A DNA stretch of 64,000 bases from Trypanosoma brucei (Eukaryota). Below the pieces are notes generated by a model. That model ran no database searches. It worked only from the letters and a program-made list of their open reading frames with translations, and was not told the origin of the DNA. The position numbers and the translations under genes are program-made. The stretch covers positions 160,001 through 224,000 of the forward strand of contig CH464491.1 in NCBI GenBank assembly GCA_000002445.1. The letters run 5' to 3'. The first letter of the stretch is position 1, and the number at the start of each line of letters is the position of its first letter. Of this stretch, positions 1-25,050 are shown piece after piece.

Positions 1-388
1 TGATTGTAGGCAGGTTTCACTGATAGCATACCTCCAATAAAACTCGGCGTCACAGGATAGCAGCCAACACCCATCCACGGTTTAACATCCATCCGACCAC
101 GGAACGTCATAGCACTGGCTCGCATCTCACCGTTTTAAACTGTAACAAGAGCGAAAGGAAAGGAAAACCGCAGTACAGAGTGAACACAATAGTAGTTGTT
201 CATTCGATCGCATTACTCAAGACCAGGTGGGAACTATAGTAACCACACCGGACCTCGGTCATTCCCCACACCCCCCACGCCCTTATTGTGCTCTTCACCT
301 CTTAAAACCAGATACCCACACATGCGGCAGTCAGCCACAATCGATTATCATCACTGCAAAAATAACAAAAAGAGACTTTACCCCAGCA

Positions 389-808
389 CTATATTGCAGG
401 AACTTTTCGTGTTTCAACTTCGGACTGCAACAACTCAGCCAATGCGTCCGCCTCATCGTATGTTTCGATCATTGCCTGTGCAAGAGACAAGGCCTCAGTG
501 TTCAACAGCTCAATGTCGCGATCTAACGATGCTACAGGATCATCGGGTAATGCCCTGATAGCACCCTCCAGTGCCGCGAAATGTCTTTCAAGCTCATCTG
601 CTATCCTGCCAACACGCTGCCTCTCCGCATTATGTTCCCGTTCTAACTGGTACACCTCCGTATCAACCAACTCAATGCTACTATTTTTCCCGGCCACATC
701 TGCCGTGAAACGCGGATGAGCGTCATCGACAGTTTCAAGTAACGCATTATACATCGCTCCAACGCAGTGCATCAACGCGGCCTCAGCCTCCACAACCGGG
801 CCTGACAT
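389..808 (-). CDS. Conserved hypothetical coiled-coil protein of about 140 aa. Its function is unknown.
   Basis: The frame of ORF 389..970 (-) is intact. The first ATG giving a plausible protein (MSGPVVEAEAALMHC...) is at 808. The upstream part of the track ORF is low-complexity and UTR-like. The protein is rich in heptad, acidic and leucine residues (coiled-coil). I recognise no domain. Confidence 0.45.
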   Translation of the reverse strand: MSGPVVEAEAALMHCVGAMYNALLETVDDAHPRFTADVAGKNSSIELVDTEVYQLEREHNAERQRVGRIADELERHFAALEGAIRALPDDPVASLDRDIELLNTEALSLAQAMIETYDEADALAELLQSEVETRKVPAI

Positions 809-1015
809 AACTGGACAGAAAAAGAAAAGAAGAATTATTAGAGACTGTGGGAAAAATCGAGGAGTCACGTAAAGCGCGGCGAAAACACATACTCGAGAAA
901 GAAACAGATGTAGGTAAGTGTATGCACACACGTACGCGTGCCTGTGAGTACAACACGAAAAAATTGTCAAGAGGGAAATGTGTGTTCGATAAACAATCGC
1001 GAAACTCTTTGCTCT

Positions 1016-2569
1016 CTACATGAGAGCACAGCTCTTCATCATCTTCATCTTGAGTGCCATGAGGGGTTTACCCTTCACTTCCCGCAACCTCACAACCTCG
1101 GCACGCAGTGCCTCCGAAAACACCTCACCGAAGAATAGGATATCGCGGTCCCGTAGGTCACTCCTGCTCGACAGAGGGGGAACAGTAAGAAGCTCACCTG
1201 TCGTTAGGTTAAAAAGGTTCCAACCCGGCCCTGGACGCGGTCCAGCAACTTCGTCAACAATTTCCCTAATGATATCAAGAGCACGCCCTATCGACAACTC
1301 TTTATTCAACGAAATACAAAAGGGTGCAACTTCACGTGACAACTGGCAATCGGCGACGAACACTGCCACAATGATACTTGCACTTGGAGGCTCTTTTGGG
1401 GCAGCGCGACGCGGGTTCATCCTCGTGTGAGAAAAAATGAACTCGTCGAGCGGTGGGGGGCGTAAAAAAGGCCACGGCGTTCCACCGATGTCGCATTGCT
1501 GGTGAGTGCCAATTCGCACAACCTCTCGGTCACTGACGCTCGATACCTTGACACGGTTGGTACATTCACAATGCGGCAACTGACCCGATTGAGACAATTC
1601 TTGGGACGGAGGGGAAGTGCCCCTTTTAGAAGCTTTTGTACCGAGTGAGCGGAGTCGAATACGTGAGGCAGCTGAGTGTAGACGACTCCCAGGTCGTAGA
1701 CCATCGGAGAGTGCCAAAGAGAGTAGCTGCGTTAACGCGTTCTCAAGGGCCTCCACAGATACAGTTACCTTTCCAACTTGGTCACTCACGCCACGCTCAC
1801 TTTCTTCAGTGGGGTCCCCTCGTTGCTGCACCACGAGAAGAACATCACGATTGGAGAGGTCAGCCTTGGAAGCACTTAATGATAGAGGAATTTGGTCCAC
1901 CACAGCTCGGTCCGAGAAACTAATGTGAAACATCGGCTGCTTCAAAAGGTGGGAGGGAGGCAGTACCAAGCTGACCGTACAACGGTCCAAGAGCTGCCCC
2001 ACCGACATCTCTGCCGCCACCGAAAGGGAAATAACAGCAACCGCTTTAATCGTCCCCCCTGTATCATCTACCTCACACATCAAAGCAGTCACAGGAAGCA
2101 TGGTACCGCGAAACGCTGGTGGCTGGAGGACAAGTGGTCTCCCTGGTGAGTACCTCCCACATATATGTGCGAAAGCCTCCTCGACATCCTTAGGAAAAGG
2201 GGTAGTGTCGTGTCCATTCGTCCCCTGAACTCTCCTCCTCTCGCCATGGTTGTCACTGTGTTCGTGGAACCGATGAATAGCACAAAAATCCCGCTGGCAC
2301 AGGTCACACGGAATAAGTACACACAGTGGGCTGCCACAAATAGCGCACGCGTGCCTCGGCTCGGTTGCACCTTCTTGCACCATACTAGTAACAGGCAACA
2401 CGCGGCCCAAGTAGGCGGCAGCGCATGCCTCCTCGGAACCAGGTATGTTGTGGTTTTTAATGTGCTCGCCACAAAACATGTTTCCGCAGTGGTTGCATTT
2501 CAGTGGTAGAAAGTCGAAATGACCACAAGTGTAACACACAGCGCCATCACCTTCGCATTGTAAGCTCAT
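1016..2569 (-). CDS. AN1-type zinc-finger protein (ZFAND1-like). It has two N-terminal AN1 fingers and a long C-terminal region.
   Basis: The 517-aa ORF starts at an ATG (cat at 2567-2569). Two consecutive Cys/His clusters, CYTCGHFDFLPLKCNHCGNMFCGEHIKNH and CAICGSPLCVLIPCDLCQRDFCAIHRFHEH, fit the AN1 finger consensus C-x2-C-x9-12-C-x2-C-x4-C-x2-H-x5-H. A pyrimidine-rich tract lies upstream on the minus strand. Confidence 0.75.
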   Translation of the reverse strand: MSLQCEGDGAVCYTCGHFDFLPLKCNHCGNMFCGEHIKNHNIPGSEEACAAAYLGRVLPVTSMVQEGATEPRHACAICGSPLCVLIPCDLCQRDFCAIHRFHEHSDNHGERRRVQGTNGHDTTPFPKDVEEAFAHICGRYSPGRPLVLQPPAFRGTMLPVTALMCEVDDTGGTIKAVAVISLSVAAEMSVGQLLDRCTVSLVLPPSHLLKQPMFHISFSDRAVVDQIPLSLSASKADLSNRDVLLVVQQRGDPTEESERGVSDQVGKVTVSVEALENALTQLLSLALSDGLRPGSRLHSAASRIRLRSLGTKASKRGTSPPSQELSQSGQLPHCECTNRVKVSSVSDREVVRIGTHQQCDIGGTPWPFLRPPPLDEFIFSHTRMNPRRAAPKEPPSASIIVAVFVADCQLSREVAPFCISLNKELSIGRALDIIREIVDEVAGPRPGPGWNLFNLTTGELLTVPPLSSRSDLRDRDILFFGEVFSEALRAEVVRLREVKGKPLMALKMKMMKSCALM

Positions 2570-3061
2570 TTTGCATTACTAACTTCTAACAAAAGGGCAA
2601 GTCGTCAGGTCTAAAAAACAAATGGTCAATAAACATAAACAGATAATAGCATTAATACAACAAGGGGTGAGGAATCCAGGCAACACCGCACGACTACAAG
2701 AGGACACGCCGCATCCGGAAGTAGTGGATCCATAAGGTGACGCATCGCCGAGCCAACAAAACAAACACGCATAAAAGATAAACAAGGGTGTGGAAAAAAT
2801 TAGGGCGCACTTTCACTACCTCCCGAGCATGAGTGAACCAAAATTACCATCCATATCCAACCCAGGTGCTCAGTAACCTCTACGCAAGTGCACCATTTGC
2901 AAAAAGTTCCGATGGGTCCCCCTGCGGTTCACCCACCTCCCTATCCGGTCCTTTGCCAATCGCTATTTGAAACGGTAACGTATAGGTGTACATCCGCATC
3001 AAGTCCCTACTGTCCGTATGAAAAGGAACGACATAACCGCGCAGTAAACCAAATCAAGTGA

Positions 3062-3349
3062 CTAATACCACCGCCACCGTTCTAGACGCTTGTATTTATG
3101 AATAAACTCCTTTGTGTACACCTGTGACGCGTAGTAGTTCTTGTCCTGGAAGTGCGAGTAGTGCGGCATGTATGCTGCATGATACAAATACACGATAATC
3201 GCCATTGGGGTAAACCCAATAAAGAAAAACGGCAGAAACGTGTCGGTCATTGTCCATTGATGTGGGGGATTAAACCAACGTCCGGAAAAGGGTGGTGCGA
3301 AGAGGTTTGACGTCGCATGTCCCCGCACGATGAGAGATCGACGCAGCAT
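3062..3349 (-). CDS. Small (95 aa) protein with a mitochondrial-presequence-like N-terminus and one hydrophobic helix. It may be a small respiratory-chain or membrane subunit.
   Basis: The ORF starts with ATG (MLRRSLIVRGHATSNLF...), an Arg-rich amphipathic N-terminus typical of mitochondrial targeting. It contains a TM-like segment FLPFFFIGFTPMAIIVYLY and a basic C-terminus. It lies in an otherwise ORF-free 1.3-kb gap and is co-oriented with the minus-strand gene cluster. Confidence 0.4.
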   Translation of the reverse strand: MLRRSLIVRGHATSNLFAPPFSGRWFNPPHQWTMTDTFLPFFFIGFTPMAIIVYLYHAAYMPHYSHFQDKNYYASQVYTKEFIHKYKRLERWRWY

Positions 3350-3878
3350 AAATAGGAGATACCTAGTCTAACTCAAAATGTTCCCTCCAATGGGAATGCT
3401 CCTACGTTAGTGATCAAGCGGCAAGAACAAGAAAGAAGAGAGATGCATACAACGAGGCAGCCGGAAGAGCAACAGGAATCAAAAGGATTTGTCGCGCGTG
3501 CTTATTCGCGTATCCGCCGGTGCTCATGTGCGCTAAAAAAATTTGACCGAATTAAGACACGCACCAGTGGCTAGAACGAACAAGGAAAAAAGAAAATATC
3601 CTTCGCTGCCTCCGTTGCATAACCTTCTTACCTGAAACGGAGGCACGCCTTGCACCCCAAAAAGTGGGAGAAAGAGACGTACACGCATTCATATTCTTTT
3701 CCATTTTTTTTTTTTTTGCAGACAGTAAGCCATTTCGTACTTTATGGCTGGACTTAAAGGTAAGCATGAACATGGTTTTTCTTTTACCACACGAATCAAG
3801 CATTAGGAGCATGTACTAGGCTAAACAAGCAGTGAAAGGGGGGGAGAAGAAAAGCAAAATTGAAGGTCTTGGCGTGCT

Positions 3879-5396
3879 CTACTGACCTAACCGGCGACCG
3901 GCCATTATACCGTCCAGTGAAGTGGACGAAGGTTGTGGAAAGCCACTGTTCTGACCAGCGAACTGTGCGATTTGTTGTTCCATCGTATTCAGTTGGGTCA
4001 CGCCGGTGCCCATATTGTCGAAAGGTGCATAACCCTGGGGAGCGCCCATTCCCATGCCCACAGCAGAGTGTGGAGCGCCACTGGACCACATGCCCGACTG
4101 TGCGGTCGGCATCGCTTGCGACAAAGGTGGTGATTGAGTCTGTTGAGCTGTTGGCGGCATATTGTACCATCCTCCACCGGAAGGGACACCGGCCGGTTGT
4201 TGCAAGGGTGCGGCTAAAGGCTGAGAATTAGCGTACGGGAATTGAGTCTGTGACGGCTGCTGGGGCCACTGCTGCTGTTGTTGCTGGGGCCACTGCTGCT
4301 GTTGTTGGGGCCACTGCTGCTGTTGTTGGGGCCACTGCTGGTGAGTTTGCAGCTGCTGGGCATTGTTGCTTGTAAAACCTCCAAATGGATCTACCGAGGC
4401 TGCCTGCTGTTGGGCAGGCATAGAGAACGCGCTAGGAGGCGCTGTGGCAGTTACTGGTACCGCGGGAGCTGACGCAAAAAGGTCATCCAGCATGTCGTGC
4501 CTAGGCTCTGCCTTTGGATGGGCCTCAACTGCATTGGAAGAAATATTATCTTCTGGTGGCGCCGTTGCCTTGATTTCAGAGGGCGCTGCACCCACGCCAC
4601 CAAACGCCCGACGTCTTTCCTCCTCCTCAAGTCGCTTCGCTAGCTCCATGTCGGCTTTTTCGGATGCCTCTTTTGCCGCGTTGCTGCGCCTTTCGAGTCC
4701 AAGCATACGCTGTGCCTCAGAAACAGTTATGCCGGCGCGGCGCTCCTCCTCACATTGCATGCGGGCGGCGAGCTCTCTATCCTCCTGTTCTTGCTGTTCC
4801 CGTGAAATTGTATAACTTGTAGTGGAGGCATGCTGAAATGTGTTTGAAGGTTGTGTGGCATTCGAACCCCCTTGGAATTGCGAAGAACCAAATCCACCAT
4901 ACATGTTGCTGCCAATGGACTCACCACTCAATTTGGCCCGTGTTGCTGCAGCTTTGTAACGCTCATCGCGCAACGTGGCAGGATCGCTGAGAAGGTCGAA
5001 GAGCTTCTTGGCACGCTCCCTCACAGAAAGACCGTGGTCCGCTCCTTGCTTTCCCGTATAGTAAAATGTCTGGGAGATGTGCTGCAAAGTGGGGAGTATC
5101 GAGCAAAGGGGAGGGAGTCCAACCTCAGGAACATTTCGCGCCAGGTGATCCAGAAGTAGAAGAGCTTTGTAGCAGGGTCTCCAAGACTTGTCGCGATTCT
5201 TCAAACGAAGCTTGATCTCCTCCATAATTTTTACAGTACCAGCTTGGAAGACACGACAAACATTGTCCATTTGCTCACCAGTCGGACCCCAAGGGTCCTC
5301 ATTTGTCGCTTCATGAACAAGTCGTGCATATTCGTTACCGCTGGTTTTCATACGAAGCATCTCTTTTGCCGCGTGGAGAGAAGTCGGAAATGACAT
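3879..5396 (-). CDS. Epsin-related ENTH-domain protein (EpsinR-like clathrin adaptor) with a Gln-rich C-terminal repeat region.
   Basis: The first ATG is at 5396 (MSFPTSLHAAKEM...); the track start at 5429 is a TTG. The N-terminus carries the ENTH signature: VHEATNEDPWGPTGEQMDNVCRVFQ resembles the epsin motif ATSNDPWGPS, and ...KALLLLDHLARNV follows. The C-terminus is low-complexity and Q/P-rich with a WPQQQQQ tandem repeat and NPF/DxF-like motifs. Confidence 0.8.
   Translation of the reverse strand: MSFPTSLHAAKEMLRMKTSGNEYARLVHEATNEDPWGPTGEQMDNVCRVFQAGTVKIMEEIKLRLKNRDKSWRPCYKALLLLDHLARNVPEVGLPPLCSILPTLQHISQTFYYTGKQGADHGLSVRERAKKLFDLLSDPATLRDERYKAAATRAKLSGESIGSNMYGGFGSSQFQGGSNATQPSNTFQHASTTSYTISREQQEQEDRELAARMQCEEERRAGITVSEAQRMLGLERRSNAAKEASEKADMELAKRLEEEERRRAFGGVGAAPSEIKATAPPEDNISSNAVEAHPKAEPRHDMLDDLFASAPAVPVTATAPPSAFSMPAQQQAASVDPFGGFTSNNAQQLQTHQQWPQQQQQWPQQQQQWPQQQQQQWPQQPSQTQFPYANSQPLAAPLQQPAGVPSGGGWYNMPPTAQQTQSPPLSQAMPTAQSGMWSSGAPHSAVGMGMGAPQGYAPFDNMGTGVTQLNTMEQQIAQFAGQNSGFPQPSSTSLDGIMAGRRLGQ
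4259..4345 (-). repeat. In-frame tandem repeat of about 21 nt (GGGGCCACTGCTGCTGTTGTT)x4. It encodes (Q)5-6WP repeats inside the epsin-like gene.
   Basis: Direct repetition of ggggccactgctgctgttgtt is visible at 4262-4340. The minus-strand translation shows QQWPQQQQQWPQQQQQWPQQQQQQWPQQ. Confidence 0.8.
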
Positions 5397-14145: not shown

Positions 14146-14940
14146 TTACCTGAATATAATAAGATTCCTTTCACTATCAACAGACTTCTTCAGCTGCAGC
14201 TTTTCTTGTTCAGCGCTGTGGTCAACCTCAGCACAAGCTGGAACAAAATCCTTCGGTACTTTTAAAACTTTACCTGTTTCGAGCTTTATTTCTTTTGCTG
14301 GGCGTTTCATTTTGTTTTCCCAGTAAAGCTTCTCTTTCCGACGCTTCTCAAGCTCTTTTCGTTTGTTGTTTTCCGGTGGCTGAAAAACGATGGCATCACG
14401 ATCTCCGAAGAATAATTCATGGTAATGGCCGTTCGTTTGCTTCTTGGGGTCAAGCGAGCCGAGTACCGGGTTGTGCGGCATGGGTAGGGGTGTATTCGGA
14501 TCTATTGTGAACCTGATTATTGTACCATGATCACGACGAGGCGAGTGCTCGGTAGAAACCTCCACTCCAGCATCACGCTTCCCATTGGCCTTTCTTTTAG
14601 AAAAGGTAACGACGGCCTTTTTCTTATCAAGAACTTCCCTCATGTCGTCTGGAATCTTAGAGAAAATATGGTCTTCTTCGCGGGAAATATTCTCCAGTAA
14701 AGCAAGAGCATCTGAATGGAGAGAGACACCTTCTTTATCAGAAAGTGTTTTAACAGCACGAGAGACGAATGAAGTTACGTCGTCAATTCTTCTAGCATTT
14801 TCCCTGAATGCGCGTGCAGAAAGGATCCTTCGCATGACGTGTGCAGGGATATCAGCACCTGACGCGACAGCAGGGTCCTCCCCATTTTCATCCGCACTCA
14901 CTGAGCGGTTCATCTCGGGGCGCTCCTCCATCAGTTCCAT
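14146..14940 (-). CDS. Hypothetical protein of about 264 aa, basic and Lys-rich at the C-terminus. It is the first gene of the minus-strand transcription unit downstream of the retroelement.
   Basis: The first ATG is at 14940 (MELMEERPEMNRSV...); the track start at 15042 is a GTG. The frame is uninterrupted to 14146. I recognise no domain. Confidence 0.5.
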   Translation of the reverse strand: MELMEERPEMNRSVSADENGEDPAVASGADIPAHVMRRILSARAFRENARRIDDVTSFVSRAVKTLSDKEGVSLHSDALALLENISREEDHIFSKIPDDMREVLDKKKAVVTFSKRKANGKRDAGVEVSTEHSPRRDHGTIIRFTIDPNTPLPMPHNPVLGSLDPKKQTNGHYHELFFGDRDAIVFQPPENNKRKELEKRRKEKLYWENKMKRPAKEIKLETGKVLKVPKDFVPACAEVDHSAEQEKLQLKKSVDSERNLIIFR

Positions 14941-16731
14941 ACGCAACGATCTTTTCGTTAACCTTTCTCGATTATATTTGAAGTATATCCTCAACCTAAC
15001 CCTAGAATAAATTGGTAAGGCACAAGAGCTGCTTAGGGCCACCGGTCACTCCCGTAACTGCAAGAACAATATACTAATATACACACGTACATGCACGAAC
15101 AAAAAGTTCTGTTGACACTTACAGTTGCTTAAAATACTAAAACCAAAGACTGGGCTCTAAACCCAAATGCACACCGCGCCTTCACATAGAAACGCAACAT
15201 TTTAAGCCGCTGAGCATGAACAAATGATTGTGTCGTCTCAACGACACATGACCGAAGAGGTGCGCAAGGACGTCCAATGACACAACAAAAGAGTGACCAC
15301 CACAATGACAATCGTTGGGCGGCGCGTTTAATTGCATTACAACTACGTCGGTACCTTCGCACTAACCATACATTTTAGTTCAAGCCAGAGAGATAACCGT
15401 GTAAAAGAAAATTTCCGTCCTTTTTCGTGACAAACGAGAGAAAACAGCCAAAGGCAACGACTTTACAGGGGAAAGGACAGGCGCTGACGAGACCAACAAC
15501 ACCTAGACATTATGCAGTACCACCGCTGGGTCCTGGTAGCACCCTGTAACCCAACCCTAGCCTCACATGAACTGTCTAAAGCACAAAAGAACGCGGACGT
15601 CACCAGTTCCAACATTAAAAGGCTATACAATAGGCTTTCAGTGATCTATTCCTATCACTTGTTTGTCTCTCTTGCTCATCCGTGGGGGAGGGGGGAACAG
15701 ACACCAATACACACCTTTCAGTCGCTATCGCGAGTCGGACTCAATTCTGCCGCTATCGTGCATGGTTAAAAGTCCCCCTGTTGTCCAAATCCCAATCGGG
15801 TTTCACGATTTCGTTGACACTGCGGCGCCGGAGGTGCAATATCTATTACACAAAGTAACGTCCCCTCCGCATCAGACTCATTCTGCGGTTATCTCATACC
15901 ACTTTTTCGCTCTAAGTCTTCGTTATTTTTTTTTATACTAGCTCTTCTTCTTTCCGTCTTTCTCCCTTTCGCGGGTGTGTGAGAGTAACTCACTGTACAT
16001 GGCCTTTCGTGTGCGATCGTTGCGGATAGTGCTCACGTTCCCAACCCCTTACACAGGGCTAAGAAAGCGCGATGCAAGTGGAGAGCGAGTGCGGGATTGG
16101 TGACACCCCTGTGCCGCGAGGAGAAGCTATGCAGGCTTTCGCGAAGTCGCATACATCGTACGATCGGCCCCTTTACAAAACATTGTACACGAGAGTGTTC
16201 GAACCAGCAGCGGTTCAGTAAGTGTTACAACGTTTCCTTCCATTCGTTGCGCCGGCTTATGCCTTCGAGTGTCGCGTGGAAGCGTTGGCCCCTTCACTAT
16301 CAAGTGCACGCTTGATCCGATTGCACGGTGTGGCGCGCACACCGGGCACACCGCCGCTGCCGCGGGCGCCCTCTCGGCACACGAAGTCCATCGGTGCCAG
16401 CTTCCTGCGCTGGAGCCTAAATCCCTTCCCACTGCCATATGCTCCGCAGCGCCCTCCGGAACAACCCCCTTGACTAAACACTCTCTGGCATATACTGAAT
16501 TATGCATCATGATCCACAAGTCTTTCCTCGACTTGACTATAACGCTTGATCACTCCGAGGGGCTGGATAATCACAACAGTTCCGCCCCCACCTTGTACAG
16601 TATCACGTTTCAGCTTCTTTTGTAAGGTGACTGGAGGGTGCACACCGAAGTTGGGCAGGCAGAGGTTGCGTTGGCACTGCCTCTGCTTACGGTTTTTTTC
16701 CAGGGGAAACAATTCACCGTTAGTCCGTATC

Positions 16732-17131
16732 TTTTTTTTTTAATTCCCATCACAACACCATGTCGAGCAGCGGGTGCCAGCGCCTACGCCGTGTATAGCC
16801 CGTACGTTTCGTGCTAATCTCTTTCCTTGAGATAGCCCGGCGCAGTTCCACTGAATCCCGCGCGACGACGGGCTGGGATTCTCTTCCACATCACCGGACA
16901 GCAGCATCTTAGTGCGGATGATACTGCTGATGACACGCTGGCACGTGCCCAGGAACCGATAAATGAAAAACGGTGTCCCAGCATAACGCTGCTGATCCCT
17001 GTGCTGTATGATGCCGTAGCCGGAGCACAGCAGTGTTCCCCATGAAAGGAATACTGCTGGCTCTTGGCTTCCCCCGATGATACGGGATACTGGACCCTGG
17101 CACCACGTTGAGGTGGCCGGCATCACCAGGG
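16732..17131 (-). mobile_element. RIME-like short non-autonomous ingi derivative of 400 bp. It has the Pr77 hallmark, about 320 nt shared with the ingi 5' end including a degenerate 2A-coding start, a 70-nt unique tail and an A10 tail.
   Basis: The minus-strand read from 17131 is CCCTGGTGATGCCGGCCACCTCAACGTGGTGCCAGGGTCCAGTATCCCGTATCATCGGGGGAAGCCAAGAGCCAGCAG, the ingi/L1Tc/RIME Pr77 signature. Its next roughly 240 nt are near-identical to 20743-20960 of the adjacent element. It ends ...GGGAATT(A)10 at 16732-16741. The track ORF 16740..17162 (-) carries MLLSGDVEENPSPSS. Confidence 0.7.
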
Positions 17132-20100
17132 CGTACGTTTCGTACGAGTCGACCCCGTACATTGAACCCTGTGATGTAGATGCGATATTGGAATACTCCT
17201 CGTTTTTGGCTGATCTACCTTGAGTGAGTCGGCACGCACACTGCCAGCTGTGAGTTCTCGGTTGGAAAAAGATCCTGGAAATGCATACGAAATTCGGGGA
17301 ATCGCCGCATACTGATGTTCATGGTGCATCCGCAGAAACAAATCCGTGCTTGCTCACCTTCCATATTTCCGGACTTGATTGACACCAGCCACGAGCTCTG
17401 CATTCACGCCATCTCGTTGTAATGCCAGCGTGTGTCAGAGTGTTTTTCACTGCCGTAATGTTCGTACTGATTGGTGGAGCTTGTGGCCATGTAAACCGAT
17501 CTTTGTTCGGGTTAGCCTCTCAGGCACAGCGGTGTTACTCGCGGGTTGATATTTCGCAGCAACCATTCACAATGCAAGGAGACGGCGATGCGCAAGCTCT
17601 CTTCCACCGTTCGCCAAGTGCCTCCTCTCGCGTCACGCCGCTGGAAGTGAATACGAACTGCAGCCCAATGCTCGCTTTCCTGCTTTCTATCTTTAGGACT
17701 GGTCGCCATAGCTCTCGTGCAGGCGGTTCGATAGCACTCAATGAGCCATTTGCTAGCGCAGTGGGGAGAGACGGCGAGTTGTTGAAAATCGACAGTTTCC
17801 TCATCGTTTTCTCCCGCATGGAGAGGTTCTTTAGTACACTCCGCGCACCAAGCTCCAGAACAATGCATTCCGCTCTGTAACTGCATGAGAGTTTCCCTGC
17901 TCCTGTCTTGGGTGCACAAATCAGCGTGTTGTTTCTATAGAGCAGGGCAGCTGCCCCGGACTTCTCACCGAGGGACACGGATCCATCAGTCCACAATTCG
18001 TAGTGCTCTCGTCGCGGTGGCTCCTTCCCCCTCCGTGCAAAATGCCGTGCAATCCACTTTTCGGAAGCCTCCCTTTTGACATCGTCAGGGTCATCAGCGC
18101 ACACAGGCTTTATCTGCGTGTGAAATATCGGTCGGCAGCTGTGGTGAAGCGTCGATGTCTCTAGTGGGTGCTCGCGTGGCTCAATGTGGAGGTGGGGGTA
18201 GAACCGCATGATGCGGGAATGTAAGACTCTGACTGGATGTTTGCTGTGGTATACTTCCTCAGCACTGCGCCGCAAACATCCGCCTCGTGACTCACACATC
18301 AGCATGAATTTCATGCTGCGCACAAGAGTGGCCGTCTTGAGTGGCAGGAGGTTTGCTTCCAGCAGAGAGTCCTCTTTGCGCGTCCCATGCTGTATGCCGG
18401 CTGTGATGCGACTGGCTTTGTGTTGTGCTGCTGCAAGGAGGTCGCGACTTCGTTTTGAAGCGTCCCAGTACCATACCTCAATGCCATGCATGGTGTGTGC
18501 CTGTACGAGTGCTAGATAAAAAGCTCTCAGCACTTGTCGTCTTGGCCCCCATGTAGAAGCTGAGATGGCTGCTATCTGCAGTAGTCGGAAGTCCATCTTG
18601 CGTCTCGTTTCGGCCGCATGTGTTGCCATCCCCTGCAGACTCTGGAATGTTACTCCAAGAAGCTTTAGTGTCCTGTCAGCTCCTATTCTTTTGCCGTCGA
18701 GTTGTAATGTAAGGGAGTGCCGCTCTATACACCCGAAGAGTGTGCACTTTGTTTTCGCTACGTTGACAGACATGAAGTACTCTTTTGACCACTGTAACAC
18801 CACGTTTAGACCGCATTGTAGTGTGTGGTTGATGACATCCCTCTCTGTGTGCCTCGCAAGTATCGTTAGGTCGTCTGCAAAGAATCCGTGCTGCAGTAAC
18901 GGCACTTCTGCAAGGCGTTGGCTCAACGAGTTCATGACAATAATGAACATGATTGGGCCAAGGACAGTTCCTTGTGGCACTCCTCGCTCAAATGTTCTGC
19001 TTCTGGAAAGCTTCTCCTTGAATCTCACTCTGCCAGTTCGGTTACTCAGAAATGATACGCACCACTTCACAATGTGGGGTGATACCTTCATTCTGTGCAT
19101 TTCCCTCGCAATTTTGTCGTGGTCTACTGTATCAAATGCCTTCTCGTAGTCAACGAATACAGCACCCGTACGAGATTGGTGCGTGGGGCGGCAGAGGGCA
19201 GCGCGGACGTGCAGGAGTTGTTCGAGCGTTGAGCATCCGGGGCGAAAGCCTGATTGCTGCGGCGTCAGCTGGGACTCAACAGTGTCTCTAAGTCTCGCGG
19301 CAATTATGCGCTCCATGACTTTGCAGAGACAGCTCGTGAGCGTCACAGGCCTGTAAGAATCGAGGTCCTCCGCCTTTTTTCCGGCCTTCAGGATGGGGAT
19401 GATAACACCAGTCTTCCATGCAGGCGGCACGACTCCCGTTCGTAGGCTCTCATTGAATAGCCTCAGAACAACATTCAGCGCTGTTCTACCGAGATGTTGC
19501 AGTGCCTCGTTGTATAAGCAATCAGGTCCGGCTGCGGATCCACTCGGTAGCAGTTTGATCGATCTCCGTAGTTCAGCCATCGTGATGGGACTGAACTCAC
19601 TCGCTATCGTCTTTATTGGTGCCGGTGGGTGTGAGTCGGTGTGCCTTCTTGCGCGGGACGAGTACAGTTTAATGAACCTCTCAGCTTGACGGTAGTCCGT
19701 GATGGCCGCGTTATCAACAAGTACAGCCGGTGTGGTTAGTGGTCGTGGCGCATATACCTTCTTGAAAATGTGCCAACTGCAGCGGTCTGACACCGCAAGT
19801 CTGGAGTATAGCGTGCTCCATCTCTTCTTTGTGATACGGTCCAGGATCTGCTTACGCGTGGCTACCAACTTTTCCCCTCGGTGGGAGGGTCCGCATCCAG
19901 CGATCTCTTCATCGAGTTTCGCGAGCTCAGGTGTCCAATGTGGTGACGTTGCTCTGCAGCCACGGGGGACGGAGACCTTCGTCGCAATGCGGATGGCGGA
20001 GCTCAATTTCTGTTCCAGGGTGTTGACGTTCTTCTTTCTACCAATTTTCCTGCAGTACTCGTCAACCTTCAGACGGAAATTCCTCCAGTCAGCTTTTAGC

Positions 20101-20965
20101 CATGCGTACATGGGCTTTCGAGGCCGCGGGCAGCTCAGCGCATCTGTGTCGTCTCCAACGATAACATCGAAAAATATGTGATGGTGATCGCTATTGGGAG
20201 AATGAAGCGATGTCCACGTGTACACTGTGCAATTCCTTGACAGTGTCACATCAGGGGTGGACTCCCCGTGGTGGCGCGCGTTCCTGGTGCACTCACCAGT
20301 GTTGCAGACCAGAAACTGGTTGTCAATGCGCCACTGTGTGAGGGTTTCACCCTTGGTATTTGGTGGGCTCGCGCGATCCGATGCCAACGCGTGTGCGTTA
20401 GCGTCTGCACCGATGAGCTGTGAACTTTCAGTCGTCAGAAGCGTATCTAGGTCAGTTGCCGTGAAGGTGTGTTTTGGTGGGATGTATGCCGACGTGACAG
20501 TCAGCGCCGTTCCACGTGCAAGGTGAATTGTTGCATGCACTTGTTCAATGCGACCAATAACATGCATACCGGTCTCGACTGGTAGGTCCTCCCTCACTAG
20601 TATTGATACACCACCTCCTTTGCAGTTACGAGCTATTCCGTGATGTTGGTAGCCAGCAACGCTAAAGCAAGCCGCCTCTCCAGGCGTCATCCTTGTCTCG
20701 CTCAACAGACAAAAGGCGATCCGCTCATCAACAAGGGTTTTGTGGAGTGCTAATCTCTTTCCTTGAGATAGCCCGGCGCAGTTACACTGAATCCCGCGCA
20801 ACGACGGGCCGGGATTCTCTTCCACATCACTGGACAGCAGCATCTTAGTGCGGATGATACTGCTGATGGCACGCTGGCACGTGCCCAGGGACCGACAAAT
20901 GAAAAACGGTGTCCCAGCAAGACGCTGCTGATCCCTGTGCTACATGACGCCGTTGCCGGAGCAAA
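17132..20965 (-). mobile_element. ingi/L1Tc-clade non-LTR retrotransposon copy of about 3.8 kb. It is 5'-truncated just inside Pr77 and has no poly(A) of its own before the next element.
   Basis: The single ORF encodes 2A, AP endonuclease, reverse transcriptase (FADD) and RNase H (WTDGS). Its 5' region is near-identical to the short element at 16812-17040. The conserved Pr77 block is not seen at its 5' end. The 3' boundary is assigned at the point where the Pr77 of the next element starts. Confidence 0.8.
17535..20843 (-). CDS. Retrotransposon polyprotein of 1102 aa. It comprises an N-terminal 2A peptide (DVEENPGP), an apurinic/apyrimidinic endonuclease, a reverse transcriptase and RNase H.
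   Basis: The ATG at 20843 gives MLLSSDVEENPGPSLRGIQCNCAGLSQGKRLAL... RT motifs are present: ...DYEKAFDTV..., GVPQGTVLGPIMF and FFADDLTIL. The RNase H motif is ELWTDGSVSLGEKSGAAALL. There are no internal stops. An overlapping frame at 17512..17919 (-) holds Cys/His-rich remnants, possibly the C-terminal zinc-finger region out of frame. Confidence 0.9.
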   Translation of the reverse strand: MLLSSDVEENPGPSLRGIQCNCAGLSQGKRLALHKTLVDERIAFCLLSETRMTPGEAACFSVAGYQHHGIARNCKGGGVSILVREDLPVETGMHVIGRIEQVHATIHLARGTALTVTSAYIPPKHTFTATDLDTLLTTESSQLIGADANAHALASDRASPPNTKGETLTQWRIDNQFLVCNTGECTRNARHHGESTPDVTLSRNCTVYTWTSLHSPNSDHHHIFFDVIVGDDTDALSCPRPRKPMYAWLKADWRNFRLKVDEYCRKIGRKKNVNTLEQKLSSAIRIATKVSVPRGCRATSPHWTPELAKLDEEIAGCGPSHRGEKLVATRKQILDRITKKRWSTLYSRLAVSDRCSWHIFKKVYAPRPLTTPAVLVDNAAITDYRQAERFIKLYSSRARRHTDSHPPAPIKTIASEFSPITMAELRRSIKLLPSGSAAGPDCLYNEALQHLGRTALNVVLRLFNESLRTGVVPPAWKTGVIIPILKAGKKAEDLDSYRPVTLTSCLCKVMERIIAARLRDTVESQLTPQQSGFRPGCSTLEQLLHVRAALCRPTHQSRTGAVFVDYEKAFDTVDHDKIAREMHRMKVSPHIVKWCVSFLSNRTGRVRFKEKLSRSRTFERGVPQGTVLGPIMFIIVMNSLSQRLAEVPLLQHGFFADDLTILARHTERDVINHTLQCGLNVVLQWSKEYFMSVNVAKTKCTLFGCIERHSLTLQLDGKRIGADRTLKLLGVTFQSLQGMATHAAETRRKMDFRLLQIAAISASTWGPRRQVLRAFYLALVQAHTMHGIEVWYWDASKRSRDLLAAAQHKASRITAGIQHGTRKEDSLLEANLLPLKTATLVRSMKFMLMCESRGGCLRRSAEEVYHSKHPVRVLHSRIMRFYPHLHIEPREHPLETSTLHHSCRPIFHTQIKPVCADDPDDVKREASEKWIARHFARRGKEPPRREHYELWTDGSVSLGEKSGAAALLYRNNTLICAPKTGAGKLSCSYRAECIVLELGARSVLKNLSMREKTMRKLSIFNNSPSLPTALANGSLSAIEPPARELWRPVLKIESRKASIGLQFVFTSSGVTREEALGERWKRACASPSPCIVNGCCEISTRE

Positions 20966-21380
20966 GCACTGCTCCAAACAAGAGGAACAATGACGTTCCG
21001 TCTGTGCAGAAAGCGAGTTTATGGGCCTTGGGGCCGCGGTGGTGTGGGTGATGTTTTCGTTGAATGAAAAGGCCCCGCCGCCTCATTCGCGTTGCGCGGG
21101 AGGAAGATCAAACCACCTCAGATGTGAATGTTTTTGCTTACTGAAATAAAGCTGTGCTGTGCCAGTCTCGGCGTGTCCGGTGTTTGCGCACCTGAAACTC
21201 CCCTTTGTGGTGCAATATCTTCTTTAGGGACTGTTCGAGTATGTCGGGGTTTTCAGGGACAGCGCGAACCTACTGCGCGCGGTGGATTGGGCTCATTTTC
21301 CAAGGCGGAGTGGTGCCGGTTCTTGGATGCACGGCCGGTCCGCAGCTGCGAGTTCGTCAGCGCCAGCCCTTCGGACCTCA

Positions 21381-21390
21381 GGGGGGGGGG
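21381..21390 (+). repeat. G10 homopolymer inside the strand-switch region.
   Basis: cctca gggggggggg aagtt is read directly. Confidence 0.9.
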
Positions 21391-22049
21391 AAGTTAGGGC
21401 CTGTTTCCCTTTCTAAATCCCCTCAACTACTGTTGGTTAAAAGAATGCAGGGAGTAGAACCGGAGGGGGGAAGCGTCGGGTCCGCCCCGCGTGAAAGCGG
21501 CTGGGGCGTACGACAGGCTTCGCGAGCTGGGGGCGGTTGTGTTTCGCGTGGGTCCGTTATATTTACCCCTTCCGTTTGTATCTCCACTAAAGAGAAAGTG
21601 GTGTCCCGATCCACACTGTATTGCTTCGCCGTGTGCAATTGCTGTGCCGCTGGGGAGTGCCTTACGGCGTCGTGGGACCGACGTGGCTCGGGGACTTAAG
21701 GTGCGCCCTTAAACACCGTGGCTGCTGCCTGGTCATGTGTTTATGCTTTGCGATGTGAGGCATTGTGGGGTCGGGCCTTTATGCGGACCCCTGAGGCGTT
21801 AGTATGCTTGTTTCTCTCGATCCTCTCTGTTTGTGCGCGTATGTTTTCCCCCTCCATGTTTTAGGGAGGGCGGTGGATGGGGAGATGTCACTGAACAACG
21901 TAGCTGTTGATTATTGCTGCTATGTTATTTTATTTTCCTAAGGCCACATTGTGGTGCCTAAATACCTGGGTTATCGTCACGCGCATTTATCATTTTTCTA
22001 TTTAGCCTTTATAGCTGATCCTTCTTTCAAATACATTTGCTTGTTCTAG

Positions 22050-22054
<5 letters not shown>

Positions 22055-22110
<56 letters not shown>
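22055..22110. repeat. (TA)n microsatellite of about 28 units.
   Basis: tatata... is read directly from about 22055 to 22110. Confidence 0.95.
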
Positions 22111-22113
<3 letters not shown>

Positions 22114-24484
22114 TGCAAATGGCATCTTGGTGCACTTGTTCCGTTGCCGGGGTGATTATTTTCAGAGCGTATATACACCGCTTGTGGGTGATCGCGGTTT
22201 CAAGCCGGTTTGCTTTTGTTTTTGAGGACATGTATTGGGGGTGTTACCACTTTTTTGTTAATTGATATTGTGCACTTTTTTGTTTCGGTAAAAAGAAAAA
22301 AAATGACAGTGATATTATTTTTTTTTTTCGCTTACCTTCTATACATATATATATACTTGTCGGTGATACGTGTTTGTGTTTGGTGCTGATAATGCTTGCG
22401 CTGGGAGTTTCTTTTGTTGGTGTTTGTTTTCTCTGTAAATAAGATCGGCTTTCATTTCACTAATAGTCCTTGTAATATATCTTTTTTTTCTTTTTTTTCT
22501 AGGGGGCCATTAGTGCATGTAAGGAGCACTCTTAAGGGAACTTTTGTCAGCAGAATAATCAATGGTAAGTGTTGTACTTTGGCCATTGCGAGTGCGCTGG
22601 ACTTTGGGAGCTGGTACTGATACTTCTGTCTTGACGGATTCAAAAAAAAGACAAAAAACTTCACAACTTTTTCCGAAAGAAAGTGAAGTTTATCCTCTCA
22701 AATCAAGTGCGGATCTGTCGCTTTGCACACGCGCTGGTTGACAATAGATCGATGAGTGACATGTCTGATCACCCTGTGGTGCGGGTCTTTATTAATTGTC
22801 TTGCTCTTTATTGATTCATCTGTGCTTTGGCGACGTAGGCGGAGTAGAGGATTGCCAATTCCGTCCTTTGGAATGGTTTACCGTCTTATTTTATTTTGTT
22901 AACCCAGTTGTCTTATGTGTAATCCTTTATCGGCCGGTGCGAGCTGTGGGTGGGATGCCGATCGTTTTTTCTTCTGCAACGGCAGAGAGTAGTGCTGATG
23001 GATATCGGTAAAGGGTGTTTGCTGCGTTGGTGAAGTGAGTATGTCGATGGAAGGGTACGCATATAATTAATATATCTGGTGCTTTTTCTTCTTATTGAGT
23101 AGCTTTTGAGAGCTCGGGACGGTAAAGTTAGTTGCCGCATTAGGTGTATGTTGTTCTGGTTAATTTCTGTTCAGATCCTTACGGTAAGCACGAAACCATT
23201 ACACCTGGTATGCTTTAATCCGTTAATTCAGGCGGTTCCACATTTGGTTCAATCACTGAAATACAGCTGAATTTTTAAATTCTTGTTTTAAAATTACCTC
23301 ACTTAATAAAAGGAAGGAAATGACACATCAAAGTAATGGAAATGCTGCATTGTACACCTGTGGGTGAGCTGATGAAGTAATAAAATATGGACCCGCGCGT
23401 TAAAGCCGTTTGTTTCCATCAGCAATGCCCTCGTGTCGGTTGTTTTCCCTTTTTGTCTTTCCATTATTCCACTGTAAGTAGTTTGCTTGAATTACGGTTT
23501 GATAAAAGGAACTGATTCACCTGGGTGTCTGCCGTAGTCGGAAGGGTGGGCGGAAACGTTGCTGTTTTCTGTGAGGTAGTTAACTCTTTGCTGCTATAAT
23601 CTTTACAATACCGTTTTAAGATGTGTATGTTATTTTTAGGTGTAGTTTCCTGGCATTTTTGTGGACAGATGATGTTTGTCTACGTTTATGGAACCAGTAA
23701 GTAGGAAAAGATGTATGAATTAACAAAAGGTATTTGTGCATCAGTGACTAGCGTTTTTTCCTCGTGTACAGTAATGTCTCTCTGGTACAGTTATTAATTG
23801 TTAGAGCGCGGTGCTGTGATCTCGGGTGTAACAACTGAATCTTTTTTTTGTTTCCTTGCTGAAGTGTATGGCTCTTTCTGGAATAACACATATGTAATTA
23901 TGCCATTGCTTACAGTGGAAGTAGGGGTGGCTAACATAATGATTTGTCCTTTTGATAACACTGTATTGAAGGAAGAATTATCGCTCTTTTAGTTTTCCTG
24001 TTCTTTGTCTGTGGTCTTGTAAGTTGGTGATATTGTGTATTAAGCTTTCAATTTTTCTTTATAATTTGCAGTAGGCAGTTGTCTCTTGCGGTCATTTGGC
24101 CTACGGTATAGGATGTGTTAAGGTGTAGCTCACGTAAGTAAAGTTCATGATCGAATTCTTTTTGATTTTCGTTTTCACACATTTGATCCTTAAAGACTTA
24201 CACATGCCCTCTTTTTCATTATTATTATCTTGTTCATGAGTTGATGCGACATTGGTGGGTAGGGTTAGATGACCTTTTCTCTTTGACGCAATATGTCGCG
24301 GTTGTTACGTTCGCTTAGACACCAACGTCTCTTGTTTGTTATTTATGTATATTTGGGTACAACCGTTTTTCATTCGTTTCCCTTTGTCTTATAGTAACTT
24401 CATATATATATATTAATTTTAACGAGTTTGTATTTTTGTTTTCCTTACAATTATTGTAACCTACCATTCGGTTTATCACCCATA

Positions 24485-24549
24485 CTATTATTACCCTTAT
24501 TTTTCTTTCTTGATATAGACCTTGAGTTCTTCTGCTTTAAATCTACACA
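24485..24549 (+). promoter_or_regulatory. Pyrimidine-rich tract with a downstream AG. It is the probable trans-splicing acceptor region for eIF5A.
   Basis: The sequence ttattacccttatttttctttcttgatatagaccttgagttcttctgctttaaatctacacaATG fits the kinetoplastid poly(Y) plus AG splice-acceptor architecture immediately 5' of the first ATG. Confidence 0.4.
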
Positions 24550-25050
24550 ATGTCTGACGATGAGGGACAGTTTGCCGAAGGCGGAGCGCAGGTGGGCTCT
24601 CTGACGTATCCGATGCAGGCAGGCGCTCTGAAAAAGGGCGGCTACATTTGCATTAATGGACGTCCGTGCAAGGTAATCGATCTTTCAGTGTCAAAAACTG
24701 GAAAACACGGTCATGCAAAGGTGAGCATCGTTGCCCTTGACATTTTCACCGGAAACAAGATGGAAGATCAGGCCCCCTCAACTCACAACGTTGAGGTGCC
24801 CTTCGTGAAAACTGCAACGTACAGCGTACTGGACATTCAGGAAGATCGTGAAGACCCCAGCAAGCCAGCTCACCTTTCGCTCATGGACGATGAGGGTGAG
24901 ACTCGGGATAACCTGGACATGCCTCCCAACGCGGAACTCGCAGGGCAAATCAAGGAACAGTTTGATGCAGGAAAGGACGTTTTGGTCGTTGTTGTTTCTG
25001 CTATGGGAATTGACCAGATTCTCAGTTTCAAGAATGCAGCTGAGCGATAA
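24550..25050 (+). CDS. EIF5A: Eukaryotic translation initiation factor 5A (eIF5A, hypusine-containing).
   Basis: The ORF starts at an ATG and encodes 166 aa. It carries the hypusination loop [12 protein letters not shown] ([13 protein letters not shown]) and the overall eIF5A fold signature (GRPCKVIDL..., C-terminal OB region). Confidence 0.95.

What the first reader, a model, noticed from the sequence alone, without database searches (positions are those of the whole stretch)
16732..17131. A 400-bp RIME-like derivative sits head-to-tail with the ingi copy, and GAAACGTACG occurs at both junctions
The short element has the Pr77 hallmark, about 240 nt near-identical to the ingi 5' end, a 70-nt tail and A10. 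That makes 400 bp, whereas textbook RIME is about 500 bp (250 + 250) and NARTc is about 260 bp. The last 10 nt before its Pr77 (GAAACGTACG, which is the 3' terminus of the upstream ingi copy) are identical to the first 10 nt of its own 3' tail. The ingi copy also lacks its own poly(A) at this junction. Together these observations suggest either insertion of the short element exactly at the ingi 3' end (site-specific APE cleavage), or a template-switch or recombination event that generated the short element from the ingi copy in situ.
Basis: seen in the sequence. Interest (0 to 1): 0.6.

Follow-up and report, generated by a model that had tools for sequence, protein, structure and literature searches.

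The report
Tailless ingi fragment inside degenerate retroposon
The supposed 400-bp RIME-like element is really the first ~320 bases of a trypanosome ingi retroposon, inserted without its tail into an older decayed ingi-like element and flanked by the family's usual 12-bp duplication, which is an unusual but minor variant of normal retroposon insertion.

Summary
The sequence features are real, but the unit is drawn wrongly. On the minus strand, a perfect Pr77 start (17131) is followed by 319-321 nt that are 93-96% identical to the Tbingi 5' end. The repeat is 12 nt, ACGAAACGTACG, at 17143-17132 and 16812-16801. The "70-nt tail + A10" is not a retroposon tail. It is the continuation of the upstream host element, a degenerate ingi-like (DIRE-like) copy. 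Deleting the 331 nt restores one reading frame that aligns with the Tbingi zinc-finger region straight through the A10, which encodes KKK (E=7e-12). The canonical Tbingi/RIME 3' end does not match the tail. The upstream "ingi" does not end at the decamer. It is a mosaic: about 3.1 kb is 95% Tbingi, and the flanks are 50-60% identical.

The best reading is a 5'-complete, 3'-truncated, poly(A)-less ingi insertion with the clade's hallmark 12-bp target-site duplication. The same arrangement is present in T. b. gambiense and T. b. equiperdum assemblies. A second locus (L008) holds ingi nt 1-423 with a 12/13 flanking repeat and no tail. The closest analogue is the L1 "tailless retropseudogene", made by internal priming. 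The finding has modest interest.

The parts
16813..17131 (-). Tailless ingi 5' fragment (ingi nt 1 to about 319; 321 if the ambiguous AC at 16812-16811 is counted). It includes Pr77, the 5' UTR and the first ~24 codons of the ingi ORF (MLLSGDVEENPSPS...GKRLA).
   Evidence: It is 93.2% identical to the L001 full-length Tbingi 5' end over 324 nt and 299-305/319 to other ingi copies. Homology to ingi stops at TTAGCAC, where ingi continues TCCACAAAA. It extends about 70 nt past the RIME breakpoint at nt 251.
17055..17131 (-). Pr77 hallmark (the first 77 nt of the fragment), beginning exactly at CCCTGG.
   Evidence: It is the only match to the Pr77 core in the window. It aligns with the L001, L007, L008 and L006-RIME starts.
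17132..17143 (-). Left copy of the 12-bp target-site duplication, ACGAAACGTACG.
   Evidence: It is intact in L004 and L006.
16801..16812 (-). Right copy of the 12-bp target-site duplication, ACGAAACGTACG. Its first two bases (AC) could equally be ingi nt 320-321.
   Evidence: The same junction is present in L003, L004, L005 and L006.
16732..16800 (-). It is host-element sequence, the degenerate zinc-finger-coding remnant. The A10 (16732-16741) encodes KKK in that frame and is not a poly(A) tail.
   Evidence: A tblastn alignment with the Tbingi protein runs through it in one frame into the next C2H2 finger. It has no match to the canonical ingi/RIME 3' end.
15925..16731 (-). Further 3' part of the degenerate host element. 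The end is approximate; a possible A9 tail lies at 15934-15926.
   Evidence: There are collinear weak matches to Tbingi nt 4212-4285 and 4639-4783 and to protein aa 862-1001. The 3' end is not firmly defined.
17144..17870 (-). Diverged host-element segment, equivalent to ingi nt ~3200-4130 (RNase H C-terminus to the first zinc finger). It is 50-60% identical to Tbingi and has one ~175-nt deletion.
17870..20990 (-). Tbingi-like block (ingi nt ~85-3200, 95% identical) embedded in register in the host element. It carries an intact 1102-aa ORF (20843-17535: 2A-like peptide, APE, RT, RNase H).
20990..21064 (-). Degenerate 5' end of the host element, a diverged Pr77-like region of about 60% identity. 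The start is approximate.
17732..17743 (-). Empty target site (CATTGAGTGCTA) for a canonical inverted RIME that is present at this position in T. b. gambiense DAL972 and T. b. equiperdum. It serves as an internal positive control for a normal insertion.

Best explanation
The window is from the Trypanosoma brucei group and is syntenic with T. b. gambiense DAL972 record FN554974. At a divergent strand-switch region it carries an old, degenerate ingi-related element, DIRE-like, at about 21064 to 15925 on the minus strand.

An RNA-derived copy of only the first ~320 nt of an active-type Tbingi was integrated into the zinc-finger-coding remnant of that element. It begins exactly at the RNA 5' end, which is Pr77 nt 1. 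It stops at an internal position with no 3' region and no poly(A). It is bracketed by a perfect 12-bp duplication of the target, which is the fixed target-site duplication length of the ingi clade.

The mechanism is inferred, not shown. The ingi endonuclease made its usual nicks staggered by 12 bp. Reverse transcription then started either inside an ingi RNA (internal priming; only the dinucleotide AC can pair with the primer) or at the 3' end of a truncated ingi RNA. It ran to the 5' end. The apparent 400-bp RIME-like element results from joining this fragment to 59 nt of host sequence and a host A10 run.
For: 1. Host continuity. Removing window 17131-16801 and keeping one 12-mer gives a single tblastn alignment to Tbingi protein aa 833-1001 in one frame across the junction. 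FNVRGRLVRNVRAIHGVGAGT aligns with FAVPGRLLHHLRTIHGIGSGS, and the alignment runs on through KKK (the A10) into CQRNLCLPNFGV...KKLKRDTV against CDLCETSFGT...KKFKHKSIV. E=7e-12, compared with 4e-9 for the uninterrupted genomic sequence, where the alignment starts only at the junction.

2. The repeat is exactly 12 nt, perfect, and found only at the two junctions. A 12-bp target-site duplication is the stated hallmark of Tbingi/RIME and the whole ingi clade (PMC3820030).

3. The insert starts at nt 1 of ingi, as do the canonical ingi in L001 and the canonical RIME in L006.

4. There is no poly(A) or ingi 3' sequence. The canonical 3' end is known from L001 and from the L006 RIME (ingi 1-251 + 5004-5254) and is absent here.

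5. Internal control. In L004 and L006 a canonical RIME with a poly(A) (T8 as read) and the 12-bp duplication CATTGAGTGTTA sits 600 nt away, and the window is its empty site.

6. The arrangement, including both 12-mers, is present in independent assemblies of T. b. gambiense (L004) and T. b. equiperdum (L006). The downstream junction is also present in GCA_001457755.2 (L003, L005). It is therefore not an assembly artefact.

7. A second locus has the same architecture with a different breakpoint. L008 holds ingi nt 1-423 only, flanked by TGGCTACTCTACA / TGGCTAGTCTACA (12/13), with no poly(A). Its target matches the published ingi4 upstream motif at 7/10 positions. Canonical copies here score 7-8/10, and the background frequency of 7 or more is 0.005.
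Against: - The window's own target site matches the ingi4 motif at only 4/10 positions (background P=0.24).
- Primer-template complementarity at the 3' junction is only 2 nt.
- No empty-site allele and no second copy of the host element could be retrieved, so the single-12-mer ancestral state rests on protein-level alignment.
- The third solo fragment (L007, nt 1 to ~310) shows no clear target-site duplication.
- Only two clean cases are in hand, so generality is unproven.
Confidence: 0.72

Rival explanations
1. A canonical ingi (or other tailed derivative) first inserted here with a normal 12-bp target-site duplication. A later deletion removed everything from ingi nt ~322 to the end of the poly(A). 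The deletion could have been microhomology-mediated, between the AC at ingi nt 320-321 and the AC that starts the right duplication copy.
For: It explains the 12-bp duplication and the exact 5' end without invoking unusual priming. The shared AC at the breakpoint is compatible with end joining through 2-nt microhomology.
Against: The deletion would have to end exactly at the poly(A)/duplication boundary. The same precise outcome would have to have occurred independently in L008 at a different ingi position (nt 423). All three orthologous assemblies show the same short form and no intermediate.
Confidence: 0.12
2. The cause was template switching or a replication-repair copy event, not endonuclease-driven insertion. 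One version has a polymerase or reverse transcriptase leaving the host template, copying ingi nt 321 to 1, and re-entering 12 nt back. This could have happened during the host element's own retrotransposition or during break repair (an MMBIR-like event or cDNA capture).
For: The target site is a poor match to the endonuclease motif (4/10). There is only 2-nt microhomology at the 3' junction.
Against: The duplication is exactly the clade's 12 bp, and the insert begins exactly at RNA nt 1. The insert is 93-96% identical to active Tbingi, whereas the surrounding host segment is 50-60% identical and carries stops and frameshifts. The fragment is therefore much younger than the host. L008 sits at a good endonuclease motif.
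Confidence: 0.1
3. The 400-bp unit is a bona fide RIME-like non-autonomous retroposon (5' part, 70-nt 3' tail and poly(A)) that inserted at the 3' end of an ingi or arose from it in situ.
For: The superficial anatomy fits: Pr77, an ingi 5' region, a short non-ingi tail and A10.
Against: - The tail and A10 are an in-frame continuation of the host element's zinc-finger remnant.
- The tail has no similarity to the ingi/RIME 3' end.
- The unit has no target-site duplication of its own (1/12 match).
- The upstream element does not end at the junction.
- The neighbouring copy has no canonical Pr77 to donate.
Confidence: 0.03

Closest known systems
L1-mediated 'tailless retropseudogenes' and internal-priming insertions in mammals (Noll et al. 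2015, PMC5322556)
   Same: These are 5'-complete, 3'-truncated copies of an RNA. They lack an oligo(A) tail and are flanked by target-site duplications typical of the driving LINE. They are attributed to reverse transcription that starts internally on the template.
   Different: The driver here would be the ingi APE/RT of trypanosomes, with its fixed 12-bp duplication. The template is the LINE's own RNA. No A-rich primer complementarity is seen; only a 2-nt overlap is present. Only two clean cases were found here, against thousands in mammals.
TbRIME (canonical 500-bp non-autonomous partner of Tbingi)
   Same: It shares the Pr77 start, the first ~250 nt of ingi and the 12-bp target-site duplication.
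   Different: RIME joins ingi nt 1-251 to nt 5004-5254 and ends in poly(A). The fragment here runs to nt ~320, has no ingi 3' part and has no poly(A).
DIRE (degenerate ingi/L1Tc-related elements), for the host element
   Same: The host is of ingi length (about 5 kb). It is collinear with the ingi ORF, and its 3' third has stops, frameshifts and deletions. It lies in a strand-switch region, where T. brucei retroposons are enriched (PMC2323293).
   Different: Its central 3.1 kb is 95% identical to active Tbingi and carries an intact 1102-aa ORF. It is therefore a mosaic rather than a uniformly decayed element.
Orphan '79-bp signatures' in the T. brucei genome (Bringaud et al. 2007, PMC2323293)
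   Same: That study found 29 signature-bearing sequences whose downstream DNA was unique and apparently unrelated to retroposons. Tailless 5' fragments like this one would look like that.
   Different: Whether those 29 include 5' fragments flanked by target-site duplications was not reported and could not be checked here.

Membership tests
TbRIME | 5' half equals ingi nt 1 to ~250, including Pr77 | tested here: met
   Present and extended to nt ~320.
TbRIME | 3' half equals the last ~250 nt of ingi | tested here: not met
   No similarity between the tail and ingi nt 5004-5254 or the L006 RIME 3' half.
TbRIME | Terminal poly(A) belonging to the element | tested here: not met
   The A10 lies inside the host's degenerate reading frame (KKK), and host homology continues beyond it.
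TbRIME | 12-bp target-site duplication flanking the whole unit | tested here: not met
   ACGAAACGTACG upstream against GATACGGACTAA after the A10 matches at 1/12 positions.
ingi-clade retroposition product (target-primed reverse transcription by ingi APE/RT) | 12-bp target-site duplication | tested here: met
   A perfect 12/12 repeat at the two junctions of the 319-nt fragment. The 12-bp rule is stated in PMC3820030.
ingi-clade retroposition product (target-primed reverse transcription by ingi APE/RT) | Element begins at nt 1 (CCCTGG...) | tested here: met
ingi-clade retroposition product (target-primed reverse transcription by ingi APE/RT) | 3' end with poly(A) | tested here: not met
   The fragment ends ...GAGATTAGC directly against the right duplication copy.
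ingi-clade retroposition product (target-primed reverse transcription by ingi APE/RT) | Conserved ingi4 motif upstream of the insertion (AxxxxxxxTxxxGTxGGxTxxx^xTxTxxTxxxxx) | tested here: inconclusive
   4/10 positions match (background P=0.24). The canonical ingi scores 8/10, the RIME 7/10 and the L008 solo fragment 7/10.
Tailless / internally primed LINE-mediated insertion | 5'-complete and 3'-truncated, without oligo(A), flanked by the driver's target-site duplication | tested here: met
   A second case is L008.
Tailless / internally primed LINE-mediated insertion | Complementarity between the nicked target (primer) and the internal RNA site | tested here: inconclusive
   Only AC is shared in the window. 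In L008 a 7-nt TGGCTAC similarity lies next to the junction rather than across it.
Tailless / internally primed LINE-mediated insertion | Recurrent class in the genome | not testable with these tools
   No searchable T. brucei genome was available. Only 2 clean cases and 1 ambiguous case were recovered through protein look-ups.
DIRE (host element) | ingi-related, about 5 kb, with a degenerate ORF | tested here: met
   The host is collinear with ingi, and the 3' third has stops and frameshifts. The central block, however, is intact and Tbingi-like, so the element is a mosaic.

The most novel reading that the evidence does not exclude
The ingi machinery may regularly integrate 5'-complete, tail-less copies of its own RNA. 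That would scatter stand-alone Pr77 promoter/ribozyme modules, here at a transcription strand-switch region. Fusing them to whatever host sequence and A-run lie downstream would provide raw material for new non-autonomous elements of the RIME, NARTc or SIDER type.
Probability: 0.1. Interest if true: 0.55.

Novelty: new member of a known kind. Interest (0 to 1): 0.3.

Why it matters
The result corrects a tempting mis-annotation: a "short RIME-like family" that does not exist.

It also documents, with a built-in canonical control 600 bp away, that an ingi-clade insertion can carry the 12-bp target-site duplication and an exact 5' end while lacking the whole 3' region and the poly(A). If this is general, three things follow. 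The ingi reverse transcriptase would not strictly need the element's 3' end or tail to start. It could account for orphan Pr77 signatures in trypanosome genomes. It would also suggest a route by which promoter-bearing 5' modules are seeded at strand-switch regions.

As a single locus plus one parallel case, it remains a modest curiosity rather than a new system.

Tried and rejected
- Exact-protein look-ups of the 1102-aa ORF and the 140-aa ORF found nothing on record.
- A look-up through the downstream SNF2/RING gene reached a contig that breaks before the retroposons (L002).
- L003/L005 (GCA_001457755.2) have an N10 scaffold gap inside Pr77, joined to unrelated DNA. They are therefore uninformative for the upstream junction.
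- An Rfam scan of 15500-22500 gave only chance microRNA-like hits on the (AT)n tract and no ribozyme family.
- Bringaud et al. 2009 (PMC2756862) is not held in the library.
- A search for a target-site duplication around the whole host element gave only chance-level 10/12 matches.
- L009, P0023, P0033, P0035 and P0037 turned out to be ordinary ingi copies with stop or frameshift mutations, not further tailless fragments.
- P0024 (BES15S03c) looks like another fragment truncated near nt 430, but it has no contig on record.
- An RNA fold of ingi nt 1-500 puts the purine-rich stretch just before the breakpoint in an unpaired region. The minimum-free-energy structure has a frequency of only 0.0001, so this was given no weight.
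- Gene conversion as the source of the fragment was rejected, because the host zinc-finger region has no homology to the ingi 5' end.

Full report
**Where the feature lies.** The feature is on the minus strand. Read 5'->3', the sequence runs ...GGGGTCGACTCGT ACGAAACGTACG | CCCTGGTGATGCCGGCCACC... (17131 downward) ...GGAAAGAGATTAGC | ACGAAACGTACG GGCTATACACGG...GGGAATT A10 GATACGG.

**What is confirmed.**
- The Pr77 core occurs once in the window.
- The decamer GAAACGTACG occurs exactly twice, at the two junctions, against 0.05 expected by chance.
- BLAST shows that the identity extends to 12 nt, ACGAAACGTACG, at 17143-17132 and 16812-16801.

**Source organism.**
- The large ORF upstream (20843-17535, 1102 aa) begins with the 2A-like MLLSSDVEENPGP and has APE and RT domains.
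- Its best relative is a T. brucei equiperdum reverse transcriptase.
- Flanking genes place the window at a divergent strand-switch region that is syntenic with T. b. gambiense DAL972 record FN554974 and with T. b. equiperdum CM010682.

**The upstream copy is not a complete ingi.**
- I compared it with a full-length Tbingi fetched from T. b. equiperdum (L001 4513 to ~9767).
- Window 20971-17865 is 95% identical to ingi nt ~98-3200. Identity then drops abruptly to 50-60%.
- The switch is in frame and in register, at the RNase H SCSYRAEC motif.
- The 5'-most ~80 nt are likewise only about 60% identical.
- The canonical Tbingi 3' end (...GGGGGGAAACTCTCACGAAGGCACGAAGAAAATTTC-A9) is absent from the region.
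- So the decamer is not an ingi 3' terminus. The lack of poly(A) at that junction is expected, because nothing ends there.

**The "tail + A10" is host sequence.**
- Translating the diverged segment shows that its last codons before the left 12-mer and the first codons after the right 12-mer form one degenerate C2H2 finger. ...FQYRIYITGFNVRGRLVRNVRAIHGVGAGT aligns with Tbingi ...LHCTLCASKFAVPGRLLHHLRTIHGIGSGS.
- The same frame runs on through the A10 (read as KKK) into the next finger. CQRNLCLPNFGVHPPVTLQKKLKRDTVQGGGGTVVII aligns with CDLCETSFGTRSSLSIHKKFKHKSIVTEDGTVVVV.
- When window 17131-16801 is removed in silico, so that one 12-mer remains, a single alignment covers Tbingi aa 833-1001 across the junction (48.1 bits, E=7e-12). 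With the genomic sequence the alignment begins only at the junction (42.0 bits, E=4e-9).
- Weak collinear nucleotide matches to ingi nt 4212-4285 and 4639-4783 continue downstream to about 16110.
- The host is therefore a roughly 5-kb degenerate ingi-related (DIRE-like) element running from about 21064 to about 15925. The A10 is an internal A-run, not a tail.

**What was actually inserted.**
- The inserted piece is 319 nt, or 321 if the ambiguous AC is counted.
- It starts at ingi nt 1 and is 93-96% identical to various Tbingi 5' ends.
- It ends at ...TTAGC(AC), where ingi continues TCCACAAAA.
- A canonical RIME recovered from L006 equals ingi 1-251 + 5004-5254. The fragment therefore extends about 70 nt beyond the RIME breakpoint, so it derives from ingi and not from RIME.
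- It is no closer to the adjacent Tbingi-like block than to unlinked copies, and that block lacks a canonical Pr77. In situ derivation from the neighbour is therefore rejected.

**The 12-bp repeat is the clade's insertion signature.**
- The literature states that the target-site duplication is 12 bp for Tbingi/TbRIME, Tvingi/TvRIME, Tcoingi/L1Tco and L1Tc/NARTc (PMC3820030).
- The data contain a control. In T. b. gambiense (L004) and T. b. equiperdum (L006) a canonical inverted RIME, with a T8 run (its poly(A) read on the opposite strand) and the 12-bp duplication CATTGAGTGTTA, sits at the position of window 17743-17732. The window has the single, empty site.
- Against the published ingi4 upstream motif, canonical copies score 7-8 of 10. 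The site under study scores 4 of 10, which is not distinguishable from background (P=0.24).

**Conservation.** Both 12-mers and both junctions are intact in L004 and L006. The downstream junction is also present in GCA_001457755.2 (L003, L005), whose upstream side is lost in an N10 scaffold gap. The structure is therefore real and predates the divergence of these T. brucei-group genomes. No empty allele was found.

**A parallel case.**
- A protein search with the ORF that spans the fragment led to two further solo ingi 5' fragments.
- L008 (T. b. gambiense FN554973) holds ingi nt 1-423 only. It is flanked by TGGCTACTCTACA and TGGCTAGTCTACA (12/13), has no poly(A), and sits at a target scoring 7/10 on the ingi4 motif (background P=0.005).
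- L007 (T. b. equiperdum) holds nt 1 to ~310 and has no convincing duplication.
- Other candidates were ordinary ingi copies with stop or frameshift mutations.
- Two independent tail-less fragments flanked by duplications, with different breakpoints, make a precise secondary deletion unlikely. They favour direct integration of 3'-truncated copies.

**Mechanism.**
- Shown: a 12-bp target duplication, an exact RNA 5' end, and no 3' region or poly(A).
- Inferred: the ingi APE made its staggered nicks. Reverse transcription then began internally on an ingi RNA, or at the end of a truncated ingi RNA, and ran to the 5' end.
- Only AC can pair between primer and template here.
- In L008 a 7-nt similarity (TGGCTAC) lies beside the junction rather than across it. 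I cannot explain this.

**Closest known analogue.** The closest described phenomenon is the L1 "tailless retropseudogene" or internal-priming class: 5'-complete, 3'-truncated, flanked by target-site duplications and without oligo(A) (PMC5322556). The papers I could read did not describe this for ingi. A 2007 survey did note 29 orphan 79-bp signatures followed by unique sequence in T. brucei (PMC2323293), which may include such fragments.

**Verdict.** There is no 400-bp RIME-like family member here. There is a tail-less ingi 5' fragment nested in a mosaic, degenerate ingi-like element. It is a new example of a known kind of aberrant LINE insertion, in a clade where I found no description of it in the papers I could read. 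Its interest is modest.

Noticed in passing
window 17870-20990 (minus strand) within about 15925-21064: The host retroposon is a mosaic. A 3.1-kb central block is 95% identical to active Tbingi and has an intact 1102-aa ORF (2A-like peptide, APE, RT, RNase H). It is embedded in register and in frame in flanks that are only 50-60% identical. The 3' switch falls at the conserved RNase H motif SCSYRAEC. This suggests gene conversion of an old DIRE by a Tbingi, or a template switch between two RNAs.
   Followed up: partly
window 17732-17743; L004 5365-5866; L006 5370-5871: There is a presence/absence polymorphism of a canonical inverted RIME (502 bp, poly(A), 12-bp duplication CATTGAGTGTTA). It is present in T. 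b. gambiense DAL972 and T. b. equiperdum and absent in the window.
   Followed up: yes
window 16813-17131 compared with L004 6479-6796 and L006 6484-6801: The orthologous copies of the tailless fragment differ at 18/318 positions (5.7%) between the window and L004. That is as much as between unlinked ingi copies, whereas the whole 3.7-kb alignment that includes the fragment and its flanks differs by ~2.6%. This may reflect ectopic gene conversion with other ingi/RIME copies.
   Followed up: partly
L008 3133-3570 (T. b. gambiense FN554973): This is a second tailless ingi fragment (nt 1-423) with a 12/13 flanking repeat. The last ingi bases (TGGCTACC) nearly repeat the start of the duplication (TGGCTAG/C) next to the junction rather than across it. 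Simple primer annealing does not explain this.
   Followed up: partly
L007 2993-3300 (T. b. equiperdum CM010675): This is a third solo ingi 5' fragment (nt 1 to ~310), followed by unrelated sequence. It has no recognisable target-site duplication and a poor target motif (4/10).
   Followed up: partly
window about 14940-24550: The retroposon cluster fills a divergent strand-switch region. Minus-strand genes end with the 264-aa gene at 14146-14940. Plus-strand genes begin with eIF5A at about 24550 and an SNF2/RING helicase at 25394. The sign of the GC skew changes here, and an (AT)n tract lies at about 22020-22112. The intact Pr77 of the fragment points toward the minus-strand gene cluster.
   Followed up: no
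L003 7885-7924 / L005 (GCA_001457755.2, CZPT02000171.1): An N10 scaffold gap inside a Pr77 joins the orthologous locus to DNA that has no counterpart in the window. This is probably a repeat-induced scaffolding join in that assembly.
   Followed up: partly
P0024 (BES15S03c, T. brucei): An annotated small ORF follows the ingi 5' reading frame to about nt 430 and then diverges. It may be another tailless fragment, but no contig was available to check.
   Followed up: no
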